A stretch of DNA of 64,000 nt from Escherichia coli (GCF_046105845.1 NZ_CP151004.1), one strand, 5' to 3'; shown: positions 43,777 through 54,787, counted from the first letter of the stretch. Program-made: numbers and translations. Notes: generated from the letters alone by a model not told the origin.

Positions 43777-45352
<1,576 letters not shown>

Positions 45353-45927: not shown

Positions 45928-47718
45928 GTGGAATCGATTACCAAACTTTACCAGACCCCGCTGCCATCTACCCGTACTGGCCCTTTGTATAATGCGTTCT
46001 CATATCCAACAAAGATTTCACCAGAAGCTATAGCGGTTTACATTGCTACGCACACCGAGCCCGGTGCAACAGTGTTAGACGCATTTGCTGGTAGTGGTAC
46101 CACAGGCTTAGCCACTCTGCTCTGTGACCGCCCTACACTCGAAATGAAGCGAATGGCGGAAAGCCTCGGCGCATCGCCAAAGTGGGGACCACGTAATGCA
46201 CAACTTTTTGACATTGGAACATTAGGGTCATTCGTATCTCAGACCATGTGCAATCCTCCTGATCCTGACGAATTTGCAGATGCAGTGAAGGAGCTATGTA
46301 AACAAGCTGAGTTACAATTGGGTTGGTTATACAGTATTAAAGATGCCAATGGCCAAGTAGGCATGCTCCGCCATGCTATTTGGTCTGATGTACTAATCTG
46401 CCCTAACTGTAATACTGAGACCTCACTTTGGGATGCCAGTGTGAAAACTAATCCCATCAAAATGGCTGATTCTTTCATTTGTAAGGGTTGCCAGAAGCTC
46501 GTATCTATTGAAGCTTGTGAAAGAGCCACAGAGACAATCTCTGATGTTTTCGGAAGTACACAGTGCACCAAAAAACGAGTGTTAGCTCGCGTGCATGGAC
46601 GTTGCGGAACAACAAAGTGGCAGAGGCCTCCAACTGATGAAGACTATGAGATTTTGGCTCGCATTGCCGAAATGCAGCCTCCAACATCAGCCCCAAACGT
46701 TGAAATTGAATGGGGAGAACTAAGACGCTCAGGCTATCATTTTGGGATAGATAAGCTCCATCATTTCTATACAAAGCGTAATTTCATTGCGATGGCTTTA
46801 CTAATGGAGCTAGTCAATAACTTTAATGAAAGCGTTCGAGAGGCCTTGCGGCTTCTTGTCCTTAGCTACAATGCGAGCCATTCGACACTCATGACTCGTG
46901 TAGTGCTAAAAAAAGGACAAAATGACTTTGTACTTACGGGCGCTCAAAGTGGCGTGCTCTACATCAGCGGATTTCCAGTTGAAAAAAATCTTATAGAGGG
47001 TATTCGTCGCAAATCTAATTCGTTCATAAACTCGTTCCGGCTTTTATACGGTAGTCAAAGTCAGGTAACTGTTCATAATGTTAGCAGTGAAACTATGCCA
47101 CTCAAGGACAATTCCGTGGATTACGCTTTCACTGACCCTCCTTTCGGCGATTATATCCCATACGCTGAGCTCAATCAGCTCAATGAGCTTTGGCTAGGGC
47201 GTTCCACTGATCGTAAACGTGAAGTCATTGTGAGCCCTTCTCAAGCTAAGGGAGTGAAAGAATACGGCAGTATGATGGGTACAGTATTCAAAGAAATGTC
47301 TAGGGTACTGAAGCATGACGCATTAGCTACCGTAGTATTTCACTCCGCACATTCGGAGATATGGAGAGCTCTAGTTCAAGCTTATACCGAAGCAGGATTC
47401 GCAGTGGAAGCAACAAGCGTACTTGATAAAATTCAGGCAAGTTTTAAACAAGTAGTTTCGAATGTTTCTGTTAAGGGTGACCCTCTATTATTGTTATCTA
47501 AGCGCAGCCAAGAACGTTCAGAGTCTAAGACTTGTGATTTAATCGCCGCTGAGATAATCAATAATGCTAAAAATGATTTGAAACCCGATCCACAGCGTCT
47601 CTATTCACAATTTGTGGGAAGATGTCTCGAGCTGGGCAGCAACGTTACTATGGATGCAAAAACCTTTTATGCACTTGCTCAAACCAACGGTTTATGTGTT
47701 AAAGGAACCAATACGTGA
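45928..47718 (+). CDS. DNA methyltransferase (amino-MTase fold; N-terminal motif I, Cys4 insert, distal DPPF motif) - M1 of a three-gene cluster
   Basis: Motif I VLDAFAGSGTTG (46072..46107) and FTDPPFGDY (around 47128..47150); CPNCN...CKGCQ zinc-ribbon-like insert between them. Confidence 0.65.
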   Translation: MESITKLYQTPLPSTRTGPLYNAFSYPTKISPEAIAVYIATHTEPGATVLDAFAGSGTTGLATLLCDRPTLEMKRMAESLGASPKWGPRNAQLFDIGTLGSFVSQTMCNPPDPDEFADAVKELCKQAELQLGWLYSIKDANGQVGMLRHAIWSDVLICPNCNTETSLWDASVKTNPIKMADSFICKGCQKLVSIEACERATETISDVFGSTQCTKKRVLARVHGRCGTTKWQRPPTDEDYEILARIAEMQPPTSAPNVEIEWGELRRSGYHFGIDKLHHFYTKRNFIAMALLMELVNNFNESVREALRLLVLSYNASHSTLMTRVVLKKGQNDFVLTGAQSGVLYISGFPVEKNLIEGIRRKSNSFINSFRLLYGSQSQVTVHNVSSETMPLKDNSVDYAFTDPPFGDYIPYAELNQLNELWLGRSTDRKREVIVSPSQAKGVKEYGSMMGTVFKEMSRVLKHDALATVVFHSAHSEIWRALVQAYTEAGFAVEATSVLDKIQASFKQVVSNVSVKGDPLLLLSKRSQERSESKTCDLIAAEIINNAKNDLKPDPQRLYSQFVGRCLELGSNVTMDAKTFYALAQTNGLCVKGTNT

Positions 47719-49763
47719 TGAGTAAGCATGATGATAATCATATCGAGATTAGCTGCCCTATAGACTTTGAACGGCGAAAACGGCTGGGGCAGTACTTCAC
47801 GGGTACCGGCCTTGGTCGTTTGCTTGCAGCCCTTGCTCAAGCCGAAAAGGCTGACAGCATCATAGATCCTATGGTGGGATCTGGAGACCTACTTGCCTCT
47901 TGTATAGAGATTGATGCTAAACCTGCTGTAATGGCAGGTATCGAGATAGATATGAAAGTACATAAGGCTTGTTCAAAGCGATTGCCACATGCACATTGTT
48001 TACTTGGTAATGCTTTCGATCCCAGGGTTATTGCACAGTTGCCCGTAAAATCATGGGATTTAGTAATCGCAAATCCCCCTTATGTTCGCTATCAATCCCT
48101 TCGGGATAAAGATCACAATTCAAGCGCATTTCCTTCCGCAATGCAAATTCGAAAAATGTTGCTTCGATCGTTAGAGTTGATAGATACACTCGATAAAGAA
48201 GATAAGCGACTTTTTGCCGAACTCATCCACGGTTATTCTGGTCTATCCGATTTGGCAGTGCCTGCATGGATTCTCTGCGCTGCTTTGGTTGAGAAAGGAG
48301 GACGTTTAGCTCTAATTGTACCTGAGTCGTGGCTTAGCCGAGACTATGCAACAATAGTGAATTACCTTCTGTTTAGATGGTTCGACATAGAATTTGTTGT
48401 AGAGGACGAACATGCGTCATGGTTTGAAGAAGCTCAGATCAAGACAACATTGATCATCGCCAAGAGAATTCAACGTCGCTCTTCCAAACTCTCAATTCCT
48501 GCTGAATATCACTATTGTCACATAGCACTTGCAGCCGCAGCAGCTAACAACAGAAGTCCTATAGGTGGTATTAACTTACCGGTAAAAGAGGCTGAAAAGC
48601 TCTTCGCAAAACAGGCTCAAATCTGGCTCCGAGATGCGTCTAAACATGAAACGGGCCTTGTTAGCACTCGTCCAATTTCTCTAAATCACTCTTGCAAAAA
48701 TATGATCGCGTCAGCTTCCCGCCAAAAGTGGTTTGCCACTATGAGTAAAGCTGATGATGTTTTCAGCAACGAAGACTATATACCTCATGAGATCCACGAA
48801 TGGATTAAAAGGAATACACTTACCCCTTCGTTCGATAGTTTTGAATCTATAGGCATCGCTGTTGGCCAAGGACTTAGGACAGGTGCTAATAATTTTTTTT
48901 ACGCTAGCGGAGAATTAAAAGACGGACACGTCGAGCTATCTTTTTTAGGCCCGTTATCAGGATTGAAAGCTAGAAGCTCAATCAACATCGTTAAGCCCAC
49001 ATTACGCCGCCAATCAGAGCTGCCTAATGGTTTTGTAATTTCTCCTTCTGATGCCAAAAGTTGGACGTTAGACTTAAGAAACTATGTACTGCCCGAAGAT
49101 ATTGGCGATAATGATATATCTTGCACATCATATGAGCTTATGCCAAATGAACTTGTTAAGGTCGTTAGAGCTGCACAAGAAGCAAACTTTGGCACAAGCG
49201 AGAGGCCGCTAAAAATTTGGGAGCTGACGGCGGTCGCACCTAATATCCGACCTGCAACACCTCAGACTCCCGCTCGTCATTGGTATATGTTGCCAAATTT
49301 TACACCTCGCCATCAACCAGATGTATTCTTAGCACGTGTAAATACGCTAACCCCTAAGGCTTATCTAAATCAAGATAGAGCATGCCTTATCGATGCTAAT
49401 TTTTCGACAATGTGGTTATTAGATGATTCAAAATGGTCAGCAACTACAATCCTCGCTTTTATGAATTCTACATGGGTTCAAGCTGTAATCGAGTGTCTGG
49501 GGTCGGTTATGGGCGGCGGGGCGTTGAAAGTTGAGGCCACTCACCTACGCAAAATTCCTGTTCCAAAGTTTAATGATGAGCAAAGAAAAATTCTTTCCGA
49601 TCTTGGAAAAAAACTTGTAAAAGGCACACAGGAAAAACTAGTTATTTTAGAGATAGATAGGATAATAGCTGAAGCTTTGGGCTGTAATGACATGAATATT
49701 GATGAACTTAAACAGATTACGCATTTAGGTCAAACTCGGCGGGCTAAACACAAAGGAAGGTAG
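47715..49763 (+). CDS. gamma-class N6-adenine DNA methyltransferase (TaqI/Eco57I-like) - M2
   Basis: Motif I IIDPMVGSGDLL (around 47863..47892) then NPPYV (around 48071..48085); ATGA overlap with the upstream gene. Confidence 0.7.
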   Translation: MMSKHDDNHIEISCPIDFERRKRLGQYFTGTGLGRLLAALAQAEKADSIIDPMVGSGDLLASCIEIDAKPAVMAGIEIDMKVHKACSKRLPHAHCLLGNAFDPRVIAQLPVKSWDLVIANPPYVRYQSLRDKDHNSSAFPSAMQIRKMLLRSLELIDTLDKEDKRLFAELIHGYSGLSDLAVPAWILCAALVEKGGRLALIVPESWLSRDYATIVNYLLFRWFDIEFVVEDEHASWFEEAQIKTTLIIAKRIQRRSSKLSIPAEYHYCHIALAAAAANNRSPIGGINLPVKEAEKLFAKQAQIWLRDASKHETGLVSTRPISLNHSCKNMIASASRQKWFATMSKADDVFSNEDYIPHEIHEWIKRNTLTPSFDSFESIGIAVGQGLRTGANNFFYASGELKDGHVELSFLGPLSGLKARSSINIVKPTLRRQSELPNGFVISPSDAKSWTLDLRNYVLPEDIGDNDISCTSYELMPNELVKVVRAAQEANFGTSERPLKIWELTAVAPNIRPATPQTPARHWYMLPNFTPRHQPDVFLARVNTLTPKAYLNQDRACLIDANFSTMWLLDDSKWSATTILAFMNSTWVQAVIECLGSVMGGGALKVEATHLRKIPVPKFNDEQRKILSDLGKKLVKGTQEKLVILEIDRIIAEALGCNDMNIDELKQITHLGQTRRAKHKGR

Positions 49764-49772
49764 CAGAATTTT

Positions 49773-52700
49773 ATGGGAACAATTTACAATGAAACTCAAG
49801 GCTTAGCATTTCTGAAAGAAGCTGTAGCACTTATGGCTGATGGAAAAGCTGAGGATGTTCTGCGACATGCGCTATCTGCCAAACTGCCGCTCATGTTCCC
49901 TAAACAGCCATGGTGGATAAAAGCACATGTTACAGGTACAGAGTCGCTTGCTAAATTTCATGAATTTGGTTCGAAAAAGTATGGATTCGTGGATGTATTA
50001 GTAGGTTCAACTGTTATTGAATATGAAAGAAATTTACAAACACAGGGTTCATTCACACATGGGCTCCATCAGTTAAAACAATATTGTGCTTCTCTTCTTA
50101 ACAGCCACACGCCTTCAGATCTTTTAGTTGGGGTACTATCAGACACGATTCGCTGGTATGCCTTTCGTGTTTCAGACGTAAAAGATATTTCGGCTGTTCC
50201 CGGTGCGACAAGCTACGGCCCTGAACATATTGATTTAGCTGAAATTGAATCCTATGACCTGTCGGCAGCTGGGAGCATTGAGGCCAAAAAGCTTGGTAAA
50301 TTCTTGGTTCGATATCTGGGCCGAGAAGGTGGACGAACTTTAGCAGCATCCATGCTAGCAAAGGATTTAGGCTTTGAAAGCTCATTTTGCGAAACACATC
50401 TCCAGCAAATAGAAAAACTAGTTGATGTAGCTTTTGTAAGCGATCCATCCTACGCTGGGTTAATCACCAAACTCTGGATGGATTTTGTTTCTTACTTGGG
50501 TGGTGAATCTGCTACAGGTAAATTTGATAAAACTTCATATATTGGAGAATTGTACATATTAACGTTAGCCAAGCTTATTTGCGCTAACGTACTTAGCGGT
50601 AAAGGACTTGTTAGCGACGATACGGAACTATTATCAATTCTAGATGGTACATTTTTCAAAGCGAAAGGACTTCCGAATCTTGTAGAATACGACTACTTCG
50701 GTTGGCTTAATAATAGCCCTTATGTTTCCCCCCTTGCCAAAGTAGCACGCGACATTCAGAACGATCTATTAGCTTATGACTTTGAGTCTGCTCCAGCTGA
50801 AGACCTATTTGGTTCTCTAATGGCTCAGCTTGCAACACGCGCTCAACGTCTTCTCCTCGGTCAAGAATGGACACCAGCATGGCTAGCTGCGAAAGTAGTA
50901 AATGAAGCCATCAACAAACTGCCATTAAACCAGCAACCAAGATTCATCGATATGTGTTGCGGTTCAGGCACTATAGTTGTGGAGACAGTAAAAGCGGTCC
51001 AACAACGGTTACTTGCAGCAGGCTCTAAGCCAGGAGAACCTGCTGCGTTAAGCTCATTAGCCACTGCAATTACGGCTTTCGATATAGATCCGCTCGCCGT
51101 AATGTTAGCAAAAGTGGGCTGGGTACTGGCTTGCAAGGACTGGCTTATACCTGGCCATGAAGCCTTAATTCCTGTGTATCACGCAGACTCACTATTTGCC
51201 AATACTCCGGTCACCAAGGTGTTTAGTACAACAGGCGAAGAGCAACGCAAGCTAAAGCTTGACACAGAAGAGGTTGACCTACCACAATTTTTGGTCGAAT
51301 CGAAACATCAATCTCTATTTGATGCACTTTTATCACGTGGTTATGATATGGCCATGAGTAGTGCTGCAGAAGCCAAATCAACGTTAAATAATGATGATAT
51401 TGAGATAATGGTTGATTCGGTAGCTTTGCATTTAGACTGTGTGCTGTCAGCTGAAGAACGCACATCTACATTATTCTTTTGCTGCCAACTGTTACGCGCA
51501 CTTGAAGCATTGCAACGTGCTGGTCGAAACGGCATTTGGTCATTCGTTCTGAAAAATAGCTTTCGCCCAGCCTTAGTGGCGGGCCGTTTTAATGGAATTG
51601 TTACTAACCCACCATGGCTATCGCTAAGCCGCATTGGTAGCAACCCTTATCGTAATGCGTTAAAAGCAAAAGCGGATAAATATGGAATTAAGCCATCTGG
51701 CGCTTCACACCTGCATGTTGAAATCGCGACGACCTTCTTGCTACATGCTATCGATCATTATCTTACATCAGATGGGGTTGTTGCATGTATCTTACCCGAA
51801 ACAGTTCTGAACGGTTCTCATCATGAACCATTCCGGTCATCCAAGTATCTATCAGCTAATAGTCCAGCAGCATTCAATCCACAAGAAATTTGGAAAGTGG
51901 CCAGCCAAACATTTAAAAATGAGGCCATTGTTCTATTCGGTTATAAATCTAAGCCAACATTTCCAGTAGTAAGCCTCTTGGGCCGAAAAGTTAGCAGTTC
52001 ATTTGAAGAATTCTGCGAGTTTCACATCGTTAATTCTGGAGGGAAGTCTGCTTGGGCATTAGACCGCCCTGTAACAGAAGTGTTGAAAGTGGAAACTAAA
52101 GATTCAATTGGACCTCTGTTTAGACAAGGAGCCGATATAATGCCCCGCGGAATTATTTTTCATGATATCAAAAAAAACGGAATATCATGGGATCTTGGTC
52201 CCATTCATCCCGGCTCATCACTATATTTTTTGCGTTCTGAGGGTAAAATTCTTAAGGACTTTTCTTTAAGCGCCTGTGGGGTGAACGATGGAGTGATATA
52301 TGATGTGCTTCTTTCAAAACATTTAGCCCCTTGGGAATTATCTGTAGGTTCAAAGGCCTTATTACCATTCCAGCGTAGTGACGATAAGTGGCTCGCTCGT
52401 ACTGGATCAAATATTGCAGCCCTAGGAGCTTCTACTGCCTCAGCAATCAAAGCTATGTTGACGGCAACCGGTGAAAACATAGAAGATTTCTTTTTACGAA
52501 TCGATACTGATCGCAAGAAATTAACCACCCAGAGTTGGAGCTCAGAAGACTGGGTTGTATTCGGGTCTGCTGGAGGTAAATGGCCATGCGCCGCTTACAC
52601 ACGCGGAGAGCAGATTCCCTGCTCTAAAACGATAATAGACCAAACGCTCTATTGGGGCGTAGTCAAAAGTGAGGATGAAGCGATATACATTACTGCACTA

Positions 52701-53018
52701 ATTAATAGTCCTGCGGTAATGAATGTGATTGTATCCCATCAACCTAGAGGATCCTTTGGGGAACGACACATACACAAGTTGGCTTTCGACCGGACACCTT
52801 CTTATGACCAAACCTCAGCTAAACATCTCGACGTTGTTCGCTCGGCGAAGGATTTGATGAATCAGTGGGCTAATCGTCGCATGGAAGCTGACATATCTCC
52901 CATGCTATCTCCTAGTGTTCACTTAATTACTCGCAGAAAAAAGATTCGTAATGCATTAGAGTCATTGCCTGCATGGGAGCCGTACGTGGCAGCCACTCAA
53001 GCTATATATGAAATTTAA
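49773..53018 (+). CDS. Large N6-adenine methyltransferase fusion protein (Type IIG/IIL or PglX-like architecture: N-terminal nuclease-like domain, central MTase, C-terminal target-recognition region)
   Basis: 1081 aa; motif I FIDMCCGSGT (around 50949..50972), motif IV IVTNPPWLS (around 51604..51615); N-terminal GFVDVLVGSTVIEYER resembles a PD-(D/E)xK core with the Lys position non-canonical. Confidence 0.65.
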   Translation: MGTIYNETQGLAFLKEAVALMADGKAEDVLRHALSAKLPLMFPKQPWWIKAHVTGTESLAKFHEFGSKKYGFVDVLVGSTVIEYERNLQTQGSFTHGLHQLKQYCASLLNSHTPSDLLVGVLSDTIRWYAFRVSDVKDISAVPGATSYGPEHIDLAEIESYDLSAAGSIEAKKLGKFLVRYLGREGGRTLAASMLAKDLGFESSFCETHLQQIEKLVDVAFVSDPSYAGLITKLWMDFVSYLGGESATGKFDKTSYIGELYILTLAKLICANVLSGKGLVSDDTELLSILDGTFFKAKGLPNLVEYDYFGWLNNSPYVSPLAKVARDIQNDLLAYDFESAPAEDLFGSLMAQLATRAQRLLLGQEWTPAWLAAKVVNEAINKLPLNQQPRFIDMCCGSGTIVVETVKAVQQRLLAAGSKPGEPAALSSLATAITAFDIDPLAVMLAKVGWVLACKDWLIPGHEALIPVYHADSLFANTPVTKVFSTTGEEQRKLKLDTEEVDLPQFLVESKHQSLFDALLSRGYDMAMSSAAEAKSTLNNDDIEIMVDSVALHLDCVLSAEERTSTLFFCCQLLRALEALQRAGRNGIWSFVLKNSFRPALVAGRFNGIVTNPPWLSLSRIGSNPYRNALKAKADKYGIKPSGASHLHVEIATTFLLHAIDHYLTSDGVVACILPETVLNGSHHEPFRSSKYLSANSPAAFNPQEIWKVASQTFKNEAIVLFGYKSKPTFPVVSLLGRKVSSSFEEFCEFHIVNSGGKSAWALDRPVTEVLKVETKDSIGPLFRQGADIMPRGIIFHDIKKNGISWDLGPIHPGSSLYFLRSEGKILKDFSLSACGVNDGVIYDVLLSKHLAPWELSVGSKALLPFQRSDDKWLARTGSNIAALGASTASAIKAMLTATGENIEDFFLRIDTDRKKLTTQSWSSEDWVVFGSAGGKWPCAAYTRGEQIPCSKTIIDQTLYWGVVKSEDEAIYITALINSPAVMNVIVSHQPRGSFGERHIHKLAFDRTPSYDQTSAKHLDVVRSAKDLMNQWANRRMEADISPMLSPSVHLITRRKKIRNALESLPAWEPYVAATQAIYEI

Positions 53019-53266: not shown

Positions 53267-54512
53267 CTACCCAAACTCAAACGGACTTACTCCTTTCTCC
53301 CGATTCGCATCAAGGTAATCAGCCCACCACTGCAGCATCAACCTCCTCTCCCCCAGATGCTCCGCCTTATGGATGTAGGCAGCCCTAGCAGAGCTACGCT
53401 CCTGATGGCTCATCTGCCGCGACACCGCATTCCTCGACCACAATCCCGATTCAATCAATGAGCTACACGCCATCGTTCTGAAACCATGTCCACATACTTC
53501 CGTTTTCGTGTCATAGCCCATCACTCGCAGAGCCTTGTTAACCGTATTCTCACTCATCGGCTTACGCGGATCGTGATTACCAACGGAGATCAGCTCTCGG
53601 TTTCCATTCATGCTTTTGATCTTTTCCAAAATAGCTAAGGCCTGACGCGACAAGGGAACAAGATGTGGAGTCCTCATCTTCGAACCACGTTGAGAATGCT
53701 TAACACCTTCCAGCGGTTCACGCTCTCCCGGAATCGTCCACATAGCCGTTTTAAAAATCCACTTCTGACCAGCGAGCAAAACGCAACTCGCTTGAACGGA
53801 TGAAAACCAGCAAAGTGAGTTCAACCGCCAGTCGTGTTAACGGCCTGCCAGAATAGTGATCAATGCGGTGAAGTAATTCAGTAATACGGTTAAGTTCCAG
53901 AGCTGCACGGTGCTGTCGTTTTGCCGTAGCAACCGCACCGGCAATCTCTTGTGCTGGGTTATAATCGATTAAGCCGCTCTGAACGGCAAACCGCATAATC
54001 GCAGTAGTTCGCTGTTGCAAACGAGCCGCAACTTCTAGTCGTCCGGAAGATTCCACCGCTTTGACGGGTACAAGAAGATCCCACGTCTTCAATTCAGCAA
54101 TGTTCCGCTTACCGATAGTAGTAAAGAGATTATCTTCGAAACTTTTCAATACACGAGCGCTATGCGATGCAGACCACTTCTGATTGCTGGCGTGCCAGTC
54201 TCTGGCAACCACTTCAAACGTTATCGCCTCTTGATCCTGCTCTATTTTAACTGCTTTCTTGTTCTCACTGGGAGCGACGCCATTAGCTAACAATTTACGG
54301 GCTTCATCCCGGCGTGTCCGGGCATCTGCCAGCGACTCTTGAGGGTATTTCCCCAGCGCCAGTATCTTCTCGTTGCCACCAAAGCGGTAACGTAGACTCC
54401 AGTATTTTGAATCGTTAGGGTGAACCAGCAACACCATGCCTTCGCCATCAGCCAGCTTATAGACTTTTATTTCAGGCTGGGCAGCACGAACCTTCACATA
54501 ACTAAGAGCCAT
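53267..54512 (-). pseudogene. P4-family tyrosine integrase, interrupted by a frameshift
   Basis: N-terminal part (53751..54512, starts MALSYVKVRAAQPEIKVYKLADGEGM) and catalytic C-terminal part (53267..53824) lie in different frames with a 74-nt overlap; adjacent to tRNA-Leu. Confidence 0.7.
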
Positions 54513-54702
54513 GATGAGTGTCCTTTCAAAGGTTCTGTGTGGTACAAACATTATCGAACCGGGATATACCCACAGTTGTACCCACATCAGTAAGTTGATG
54601 TAGATTGAATTAGGTTGAGTGAAAAAGTGAGGAAGGCATTGCGGATACTGGATTTCAGACACAAAAAAAGCCGCCCTTGAGCGACTCGATTTGCATACGA
54701 TG

Positions 54703-54787
54703 TGGTGCCGAAGGCCGGACTCGAACCGGCACGTATTTCTACGGTTGATTTTGAATCAACTGCGTCTACCGATTTCGCCACTTCGGC
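54703..54787 (-). tRNA. leuX: tRNA-Leu (CAA)
   Basis: Reverse complement reads GCCGAAGTGGCGAAATCGGTAGACGCAGTTGATTCAAAATCAACCGTAGAAATACGTGCCGGTTCGAGTCCGGCCTTCGGCACCA; anticodon-loop TTCAAAA. Confidence 0.9.

What the first reader, a model, noticed from the sequence alone, without database searches (positions are those of the whole stretch)
49773..51000. Non-canonical nuclease motif in the large methyltransferase fusion
The N-terminal domain contains GFVDVLVGSTVIEYER. The spacing D-x8-E-x-E resembles the D...E-x-K core of Type IIG/IIL enzymes as I recall it, but the lysine position is glutamate (with arginine next to it). This could mean an inactivated cleavage domain (methylation-only, or acting with a partner), or a catalytic variant.
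Basis: inference. Interest (0 to 1): 0.55.

Follow-up and report, generated by a model that had tools for sequence, protein, structure and literature searches.

The report
Restriction enzyme with known D-EXE site
The odd "D…E-x-E" motif is real and sits in a genuine nuclease domain, but it is the same variant active site already described in the cutting-competent TspDTI/Tth111II group of fused restriction-methylation enzymes, so this is most likely an ordinary, unannotated E. coli restriction enzyme and not a dead or new one.

Summary
The motif GFVDVLVGSTVIEYER (aa 71-86; DNA 49983-50030) is present as described in a 1081-aa ORF (49773-53018, +). It is the only D-x8-E-x-[EK] in the protein.

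Across 79 homologues (21-83% identity) E27, D74, E83 and D124 are invariant. Position 85 is E in about 85% of members and K in the rest, so E85 occupies the canonical lysine position of PD-(D/E)XK.

A family profile aligns end to end with TspDTI (hhalign probability 100%, E 2.6e-68, 933 columns). D74/E83/E85 fall on TspDTI D66/E75/E77, the published "atypical D-EXE" motif of TspDTI, Tth111II, TthHB27I, TsoI and CchII. These enzymes cut DNA, and BamHI uses the same pattern.

The "catalytic variant" reading is therefore supported and "inactivated" is unlikely. The gene ends a conserved three-gene operon, behind two separate methyltransferases, on a rare leuX island (4 of 5426 complete E. coli genomes). 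Verdict: a new member of a known kind, of low interest. No cleavage has been shown for this protein.

The parts
49773..53018 (+). RM gene: a 1081-aa fused nuclease / helical connector / N6-adenine methyltransferase / target-recognition protein (Type IIG/IIC/IIS, TspDTI-like)
   Evidence: ORF and translation. PADLOC REase_MTase_IIG hit, 2e-48. hhalign against TspDTI: probability 100%, E 2.6e-68, 933 columns. AF2 model with pLDDT 91; Foldseek hits to BpuSI, MmeI, DrdV, PglX and CamA.
49773..50327 (+). N-terminal PD-(D/E)XK nuclease domain (aa 1-185)
49983..50030 (+). The motif GFVDVLVGSTVIEYER: D74 (49992-49994), E83 (50019-50021) and E85 (50025-50027), the D-EXE active-site hairpin
   Evidence: D74 and E83 are invariant; position 85 is E or K. 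The motif aligns to TspDTI D66/E75/E77 (PMC3384240). D74 and E83 are cross-strand neighbours in the beta 67-77 / beta 80-84 hairpin of the model (inferred from strand registers).
50070..50084 (+). Q100-x-x-x-Y104 in the helix that follows the ExE strand. Y104 is about 90% conserved and Q100 is Q in 99 of 116 sequences.
   Evidence: TspDTI has QQVKDY at the aligned position. The resemblance to the QxxxY motif of RecB/Cas4-type nucleases is from memory and was not tested.
50328..50807 (+). All-helical connector between the nuclease and methyltransferase domains (about aa 186-345)
   Evidence: Secondary structure of the model. Collinear with the TspDTI 'Mh' region (PMC3751577).
50808..51872 (+). 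Gamma-class N6-adenine methyltransferase domain (about aa 346-700). It carries motif I DMCCGSG (50949-50969), motif IV NPPW (51606-51617) and a helical insert at aa ~505-600.
   Evidence: Pfam Eco57I/N6_Mtase. PDB profile hits to CamA, BsaXI, MmeI and PglX. BLASTP to TspDTI: 27% identity, E 7e-29 over aa 292-688. N612, P614 and W615 are invariant.
51873..53015 (+). C-terminal target-recognition and C-terminal domains (about aa 701-1081)
   Evidence: The hhalign alignment continues to aa 1022. BLASTP segment 966-1018 against TspDTI 995-1047, E 2e-4. The model is confident here. The domain boundary is approximate.
47718..49763 (+). M2: a separate 681-aa gamma-class N6-adenine methyltransferase (Eco57I-type, with a TaqI/Eco57I-like C-terminal specificity domain). 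Its start overlaps the M1 stop codon.
   Evidence: PGAP names it 'N-6 DNA methylase'. It lies immediately upstream of the RM gene in Hymenobacter, Xanthomonas, Lysobacter and metagenome contigs.
45928..47718 (+). M1: a separate 596-aa N6_N4-type DNA methyltransferase with permuted motif order and a Zn-ribbon insert
   Evidence: (PglXI-type profile, 1.8e-116). It is conserved upstream of M2-RM in Xanthomonas, Lysobacter and metagenome contigs.

Best explanation
The 1081-aa protein is a single-chain Type IIG (IIS/IIC) restriction-modification enzyme of the TspDTI subfamily. Its N-terminal 185 residues form a PD-(D/E)XK nuclease whose active-site hairpin carries D74 and E83-x-E85. The canonical lysine is replaced by glutamate, as in BamHI and in TspDTI, Tth111II and TsoI.

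The inferred mechanism is as follows:
- The C-terminal recognition domain and the NPPW methyltransferase domain bind an asymmetric 5-7 bp site, with SAM bound.
- The nuclease domain, held on a helical connector, cuts at a fixed distance downstream. That distance is 11/9 nt in the characterised relatives.
- The carboxylates E27/E57, D74, E83 and E85 bind the divalent metal(s) and activate the water.
- Host DNA is protected by the enzyme's own adenine methylation together with the two co-transcribed stand-alone methyltransferases M1 and M2.

Shown here: the motif, its conservation, the fold, end-to-end homology to TspDTI, and the operon. Inferred only: that this protein cleaves DNA, its cutting distance, the roles of individual residues, and what M1 and M2 methylate.
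For: - The motif is present and unique in the protein.
- E27, D74, E83 and D124 are invariant in 79 sequences at 21-83% identity. This is the pattern expected for a site under catalytic selection, not a decayed one.
- Position 85 toggles only between E and K (92 to 15). At least 5 switches occur on a rough NJ tree, and a K85 member (P0153) sits in the same M1-M2-RM operon. Both states therefore appear interchangeable in a working scaffold.
- The family profile against TspDTI gives probability 100%, E 2.6e-68 and 933 columns, with D74=D66, E83=E75, E85=E77, R86=R78, Q100/Y104=Q96/Y100 and D124=D121. BLASTP gives E 7e-29.
- TspDTI D66/E75/E77 is the published 'atypical D-EXE'. The TspDTI subfamily (TspDTI, Tth111II/TthHB27I, TsoI, CchII) consists of purified enzymes that cleave at 11/9 (PMC3384240; PMC3751577; PMC3899748).
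- The BamHI active site is PD94-E111xE113 (PMC8845596).
- All three genes are intact and tightly packed, and the module is conserved across Proteobacteria.
Against: - No biochemical data exist for this protein or any close relative. The nearest characterised enzyme is only about 22-27% identical.
- The D-EXE residues of the TspDTI subfamily were assigned by bioinformatics. The paper's table marks them '(B)', and no mutagenesis was found.
- No residue-level structural superposition on the BpuSI or DrdV catalytic residues could be obtained. No sequence-level hit of the N-terminal domain to any solved structure or to Pfam was found.
- The Thermus enzymes were reported without a companion methyltransferase, so the operon logic here differs from theirs.
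Confidence: 0.78

Rival explanations
1. The nuclease domain is catalytically dead because Lys is replaced by Glu. The protein acts only as a third methyltransferase or as a DNA-binding specificity module, so the locus is a methylation-only system or an orphan one.
For: The canonical Lys is absent. The locus encodes three methyltransferase domains and no separate nuclease. The PGAP annotation sees only a methyltransferase or a hypothetical protein.
Against: Dead domains drift, yet here E27, D74, E83 and D124 are invariant across 79 divergent sequences and position 85 is restricted to E or K. The same D-EXE occurs in enzymes that do cut DNA (PMC3384240, PMC3751577) and in BamHI (PMC8845596). Two dedicated companion methyltransferases are what one expects when there is a toxic nuclease to protect against.
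Confidence: 0.1
2. The Glu variant is an attenuated or differently regulated nuclease compared with Lys-bearing relatives. It might nick, need a second enzyme molecule or a partner, or prefer a different metal. The E/K toggle would then tune toxicity.
For: E and K have swapped repeatedly in the family. TspDTI (D-EXE) is listed as stimulated by Ca2+, whereas TspGWI (D-EXK) is stimulated by Mn2+/Fe2+/Co2+ and not by Ca2+ (table quoted). The Thermus-family enzymes are known for incomplete digestion (abstract of PMC3384240).
Against: There is no direct comparison of E and K variants within one scaffold. The metal differences come from distant subfamilies and may be unrelated to this residue. The operon architecture is the same for the E85 and K85 members examined.
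Confidence: 0.1
3. The D-x8-E-x-E match is a coincidence. The N-terminal region is not a nuclease fold, or the true catalytic motif lies elsewhere.
For: The three-residue pattern is short. Pfam and NCBIfam recognise no N-terminal domain. HMM searches of the N-terminal profile against PDB sequences found nothing meaningful.
Confidence: 0.02

Closest known systems
TspDTI subfamily of the 'Thermus sp. family' of Type IIS/IIC/IIG restriction endonuclease-methyltransferases (TspDTI, Tth111II/TthHB27I, TsoI, CchII)
   Same: Single polypeptide of about 1100 aa with the same domain order: nuclease, helical, methyltransferase, recognition. It aligns end to end (hhalign probability 100%, E 2.6e-68). The active-site string is nearly identical (VIEYER in both; D-x8-E-x-E). 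It has NPPW as motif IV and a Cys/Ser-containing motif I (DMCCGSG against (D/P)PACGSG).
   Different: Only about 22% identity overall and 27% in the methyltransferase core. The host is a mesophilic proteobacterium, on an E. coli leuX island. Motif I differs at two positions. The gene lies in a conserved operon behind two separate methyltransferases, whereas no companion methyltransferase was found for TspDTI. The recognition sequence and cleavage are unknown.
BamHI (classical Type IIP PD-(D/E)XK enzyme)
   Same: The catalytic triad pattern D...E-x-E, with Glu in the Lys position (PD94-E111xE113), plus an extra upstream Glu (E77; compare E27/E57 here).
   Different: Otherwise unrelated: a small homodimer that cuts within a palindromic site, with no methyltransferase fusion. 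The D-to-E spacing is 16 residues, against 8 here.
BpuSI (Type IIG, PDB 3S1S) and DrdV (Type IIL, PDB 7LO5)
   Different: No detectable sequence similarity in the nuclease domain. From memory, their sites are canonical D...ExK; this was not checked here.
MmeI family (Type IIL)
   Same: Overall architecture and the methyltransferase core (PDB profile hit 5HR4, E 6.7e-6; Foldseek). From memory, MmeI also has GFVD...E-x-K...Q-x-x-x-Y.
   Different: No hit to the MmeI_N, hel, Mtase, TRD or C Pfam families. MmeI-type enzymes work without companion methyltransferases, whereas this one has two.
Eco57I-type systems (a Type IIG RM protein plus a separate methyltransferase)
   Same: The genetic logic of a fused RM enzyme accompanied by stand-alone methyltransferase(s). 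M2 carries the Eco57I methylase and M_Eco57I_C domains.
   Different: There are two companion methyltransferases, not one. The RM protein is of the TspDTI type, and no significant similarity exists between M2 and RM.

Membership tests
PD-(D/E)XK nuclease superfamily | An alpha-beta-beta-beta-alpha-beta core fold | tested here: met
PD-(D/E)XK nuclease superfamily | A conserved Asp on beta2 and an acidic residue on beta3 | tested here: met
   D74 and E83 are invariant in 79 sequences. They lie opposite each other in the 67-77 / 80-84 hairpin.
PD-(D/E)XK nuclease superfamily | A Lys two residues after the beta3 acidic residue | tested here: not met
   Position 85 is Glu here and in about 85% of homologues. 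Lys occupies the same column in 15-17 homologues. This is a known permitted variant (BamHI; the TspDTI subfamily).
TspDTI subfamily (Thermus-family Type IIS/IIC/IIG) | A single chain of about 1100 aa with collinear nuclease, helical, methyltransferase and recognition domains | tested here: met
   hhalign of A2 against TspDTI: 933 aligned columns (19-1022 against 22-1060), probability 100%, E 2.6e-68. BLASTP E 7e-29.
TspDTI subfamily (Thermus-family Type IIS/IIC/IIG) | The atypical D-EXE nuclease motif | tested here: met
   D74-x8-E83-x-E85 aligns to D66-x8-E75-x-E77. The criterion is taken from PMC3384240 and PMC3751577.
TspDTI subfamily (Thermus-family Type IIS/IIC/IIG) | A Cys+Ser-containing SAM motif (D/P)PACGSG | tested here: inconclusive
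   The motif here is DMCCGSG (aa 393-399). The D, C, G-S-G and one further Cys are kept, but P-A is replaced by M-C.
TspDTI subfamily (Thermus-family Type IIS/IIC/IIG) | NPPW as methylation motif IV | tested here: met
   NPPW at aa 612-615. N612, P614 and W615 are invariant. It aligns to TspDTI NPPW626.
TspDTI subfamily (Thermus-family Type IIS/IIC/IIG) | Cleavage 11/9 nt from an asymmetric 5-7 bp site, modulated by SAM or sinefungin | not testable with these tools
   This requires purified protein.
MmeI family (Type IIL) | Matches to the MmeI_N, MmeI_hel, MmeI_Mtase, MmeI_TRD and MmeI_C families | tested here: not met
   The Pfam scan of the whole protein lists only Eco57I, N6_Mtase and weak methyltransferase hits.
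MmeI family (Type IIL) | Host protection by the RM protein alone, with no separate methyltransferase | tested here: not met
   Two methyltransferase genes precede the RM gene, and the arrangement is conserved with it.
BREX PglX / PglXI methyltransferases | Embedded in a brxA/B/C-pglZ-brxL type gene cluster | tested here: not met
   The RM protein gives only a weak PglX hit (5.9e-5), and M1 hits the PglXI profile. The neighbours are IS elements, an integrase and yjhR. The conserved module in other genomes has just three genes.

The most novel reading that the evidence does not exclude
Within one conserved Type IIG scaffold, the residue at the catalytic 'lysine' position has flipped between Glu and Lys at least five times while everything else in the site stayed fixed. 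The flip is one nucleotide, GAA to AAA. If the two states use different chemistry (a BamHI-like all-carboxylate site against a Lys-assisted site) or set different activity or toxicity levels, this family would be a natural swap series for asking what that lysine does in PD-(D/E)XK enzymes. In addition, the mesophilic clade's fixed M1-M2-RM operon, with three methyltransferase domains, would be a variant organisation not described for the Thermus enzymes.
Probability: 0.25. Interest if true: 0.4.

Novelty: new member of a known kind. Interest (0 to 1): 0.2.

Why it matters
The practical value is modest.

- A widespread family is labelled in databases as 'hypothetical protein', 'DNA methyltransferase family protein' or even 'methylase of polypeptide chain release factors'. 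The search returned 1248 hits at E <= 0.001, many from Proteobacteria and Bacteroidota. Members that share the nuclease domain can be re-annotated as TspDTI-type Type IIG restriction-modification enzymes. This adds a probable restriction barrier to a rare E. coli leuX island.
- The family could supply new mesophilic Type IIG specificities.
- The natural E/K alternation gives a clean set of variants for testing the role of the third catalytic residue.

It does not change what is known about nuclease mechanisms, because the D-EXE variant was described in BamHI and, in 2012-2013, in this very enzyme subfamily.

Tried and rejected
- phmmer of the whole protein against PDB sequences found nothing at E <= 1.
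- The full-length family profile against PDB hit only methyltransferase cores (CamA, BsaXI, StySJI M, PglX, BseCI, MmeI). It hit nothing in the N-terminal domain.
- Pfam and NCBIfam have no model for the nuclease or helical regions.
- BLASTP of M2 against RM looked for shared recognition domains and found nothing significant.
- The Tth111II paper was checked for mutagenesis of the D-EXE residues, and none was found.
- A canonical D...(D/E)xK elsewhere in residues 1-300 was searched for. Four candidates exist in the E. coli sequence, and none is conserved.
- BREX, MADS and Hma readings were considered because of weak PADLOC hits (PglX, mad2, HmaB). They were rejected for lack of the partner genes.
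- A compensating Lys/Arg at position 86 was considered. It is K/R in 61 of 95 E85 members but S/A/P/T in many others, and K/R in 6 of 17 K85 members, so it is not a required substitute.

Caveats:
- The TspDTI sequence (aa 1-1070 of 1112) was transcribed by hand from the paper's supplementary table. The table prints R over a CCG codon, which I corrected to P. The numbering checks against the paper's D66/E75/E77 and NPPW626 passed.
- The NJ tree used to count E/K switches is rough.

Full report
**Observation**

The + strand ORF 49773-53018 encodes a 1081-aa protein. The string GFVDVLVGSTVIEYER is residues 71-86, DNA 49983-50030 (one match in the window). By itself such a three-residue pattern means little. 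It is, however, the only D-x8-E-x-[EK] in the protein, and no conserved canonical D...(D/E)xK exists elsewhere in residues 1-300.

**Where the window comes from**

The flanking genes are nanC/nanM/nanS, yjhR, ahr, idnKDOTR, lptFG and pepA. A tRNA-Leu(CAA) lies at 54703-54787 next to a frameshifted P4-type integrase. Together these identify an Escherichia coli leuX genomic island. The 1081-aa gene is present in only 4 of 5426 complete E. coli genomes, at 99.2-100% identity. PGAP calls it 'hypothetical protein' or 'DNA methyltransferase family protein'.

The gene is the last in a tight three-gene operon:
- M1 (45928-47718, 596 aa): an N6_N4-type methyltransferase with permuted motif order and a Zn-ribbon insert.
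- M2 (47718-49763, 681 aa): a gamma-class Eco57I-type N6-adenine methyltransferase with its own specificity domain.
- The large fusion protein (RM).

**Family and conservation**

The protein belongs to a large, length-conserved family of about 1050-1100 aa found in Proteobacteria, Bacteroidota and many metagenomes (1248 hits at E <= 0.001). An exhaustive search with residues 1-341 found 269 representatives, and almost all of the complete ones are again about 1050-1100 aa. The nuclease-like domain therefore travels with the methyltransferase.

In an alignment of 79 members at 21-83% identity, the only invariant N-terminal residues are E27, D74, E83 and D124. E57, G71, Y104 and W128 are at least 90% conserved. 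Position 85 is the informative column:
- It is Glu in 95 and Lys in 17 of 116 sequences.
- It is Glu in 92 and Lys in 15 of 107 full-length sequences.
- No full-length member has anything else.

The Lys-bearing members read GF(V/I)D-x8-E-(F/Y/W)-K, a textbook D...ExK. So E85 does sit at the canonical lysine position. A rough NJ tree needs at least five E/K changes, and each is a single GAA/AAA transition. The neighbouring K/R86 is not a required substitute for the missing lysine, because many E85 members have S, A, P or T there.

**Fold**

AlphaFold2 with the 79-sequence alignment gives a confident full-length model (pLDDT 91, pTM 0.88). Its domains run in this order: N-terminal alpha/beta domain, all-helical connector, methyltransferase with a helical insert, then C-terminal beta-rich domains. 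Foldseek against the PDB returns M.BseCI and CamA for the methyltransferase-recognition part. It returns BpuSI, MmeI, DrdV and PglX/BrxX over the whole chain.

In the model, D74 lies three residues before the end of strand 67-77 and E83 lies three residues into strand 80-84. They therefore face each other across the hairpin, with E85 on the same face. This is the standard geometry of the motif, but it is inferred from strand registers because no coordinates were available.

**Link to known enzymes**

The literature search turned up the TspDTI paper (PMC3384240). [quoted passage not shown] That is the same E/K alternation seen here.

The TsoI paper (PMC3751577) defines the TspDTI subfamily (TspDTI, Tth111II/TthHB27I, TsoI and the mesophilic CchII) by three features: D-EXE, a Cys+Ser-containing SAM motif (D/P)PACGSG, and NPPW. 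All of these enzymes cleave 11/9 nt from asymmetric 5-6 bp sites.

I transcribed TspDTI residues 1-1070 from the paper's supplementary file. Its hairpin reads GRADAIFNRLVIEYER, against GFVDVLVGSTVIEYER here. Two comparisons followed:
- BLASTP of the E. coli protein against TspDTI gives 27% identity over residues 292-688 (E 7e-29), plus a C-terminal segment (E 2e-4).
- The 79-sequence profile against TspDTI gives hhalign probability 100%, E 2.6e-68 and 933 aligned columns (19-1022 against 22-1060). The residue pairs are E27/E30, D74/D66, E83/E75, E85/E77, R86/R78, Q100-Y104/Q96-Y100 and D124/D121.

The E. coli protein also has NPPW (612-615) and DMCCGSG (393-399). It is therefore a distant but end-to-end member of the TspDTI subfamily and carries that subfamily's hallmark motif.

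**What this means for function**

TspDTI, Tth111II and TsoI have been purified and cut DNA (PMC3384240; PMC3899748; PMC3751577). BamHI's active site is PD94-E111xE113, and its E113K mutant cleaves poorly (PMC8845596). Glu at the lysine position is therefore compatible with catalysis and, in BamHI, is required for it.

Three lines of evidence point to a catalytically competent Type IIG restriction-modification enzyme, not an inactivated domain:
- The acidic residues are invariant across a very divergent family.
- Position 85 is restricted to E or K.
- Two dedicated companion methyltransferases are present.

I put this at about 0.78. The remainder is split between 'dead domain, methylation only' (0.1) and 'attenuated or differently regulated nuclease' (0.1). 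The weak points are that nothing has been measured for this protein or any close relative, and that the D-EXE assignment in the Thermus enzymes is itself bioinformatic (marked '(B)' in their table).

**Differences from the characterised relatives**

- Overall identity is only about 22-27%.
- Motif I deviates (M-C in place of P-A).
- The genomic organisation differs. M2-RM adjacency holds from E. coli to Hymenobacter. The full M1-M2-RM module, with overlapping or abutting genes, recurs in Xanthomonas, Lysobacter and metagenome contigs, including one K85 member. In contrast, no companion methyltransferase was found next to tspDTIRM, and one distant family member is solitary.
- M2 and RM share no detectable recognition-domain similarity.

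The probable logic is inference by analogy with Eco57I-type and other Type IIS/IIG systems. On that reading, M1 and M2 protect the two strands of an asymmetric site, while the RM protein's own methyltransferase domain serves recognition, SAM sensing and one-strand modification.

**Verdict**

It is not novel, because the motif is the published signature of the subfamily to which this protein belongs. What is new is only the assignment of an unannotated, widespread mesophilic clade, with its three-gene operon, to that subfamily, and the documentation of repeated E/K switching. Interest is 0.2.

Noticed in passing
window 53267-54662 (-) and 54703-54787 (-): A P4-type integrase is split into two ORFs of 185 and 303 aa; PGAP marks it as frameshifted. 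It lies directly next to tRNA-Leu(CAA) leuX, which marks the island boundary. The island is probably no longer able to excise.
   Followed up: partly
window 43834-45344 (+): IS3/ISEc31-type transposase remnants lie between the yjhR helicase and the methyltransferase operon. Strain N1420 carries about 1.6 kb more here, including an IS110 element, so the window comes from a different strain. In strains W284 and CD09 the match begins only after the IS.
   Followed up: partly
window 38545-39474 (+) and 39785-43393 (-): A phosphorothioated-DNA-binding restriction endonuclease (NF045808, E 1.4e-131) and a 1202-aa SF1 helicase (YjhR, with weak hits to the PLuB, ProA and Hhe antiphage helicases) sit in the same island. 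This looks like a small defence-gene cluster. In N1420 an HNH endonuclease and a restriction-endonuclease pseudogene are annotated nearby.
   Followed up: no
window 45928-47718 (+): M1 has its SAM-binding motif (DAFAGSGTTG, aa 51-60) before the catalytic TDPPFGDY (about aa 400), with a CxxC...CxxC zinc-ribbon insert between them. Its best defence-database hit is the BREX type 3 PglXI profile (1.8e-116), and it also hits the DUF1156 antiphage family, yet no BREX genes are present.
   Followed up: partly
loci L003, L006, L008, L009 (M1-M2-RM); L002 (M2-RM); L007 (RM alone): The three-gene methyltransferase-methyltransferase-RM module, with overlapping stop and start codons, is conserved across distant Proteobacteria. 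It is often next to integrases, conjugation genes or IS elements, which fits a mobile restriction-modification cassette.
   Followed up: partly
RM protein aa 505-600 (window about 51285-51572): A helical insert of about 100 residues lies between methyltransferase motifs III and IV. It is shared with TspDTI (aligned) and contains the conserved GRNGIW segment (G584, N586, G587, I588 and W589 invariant among the 26 closest homologues; W589 at least 90% over 79). Its function is unknown.
   Followed up: no
database annotations of homologues: Many family members are named 'methylase of polypeptide chain release factors' (PrmC-like) by JGI and NCBI sources. This is a probable systematic mis-annotation that comes from the weak TIGR03534 similarity seen.
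   Followed up: no
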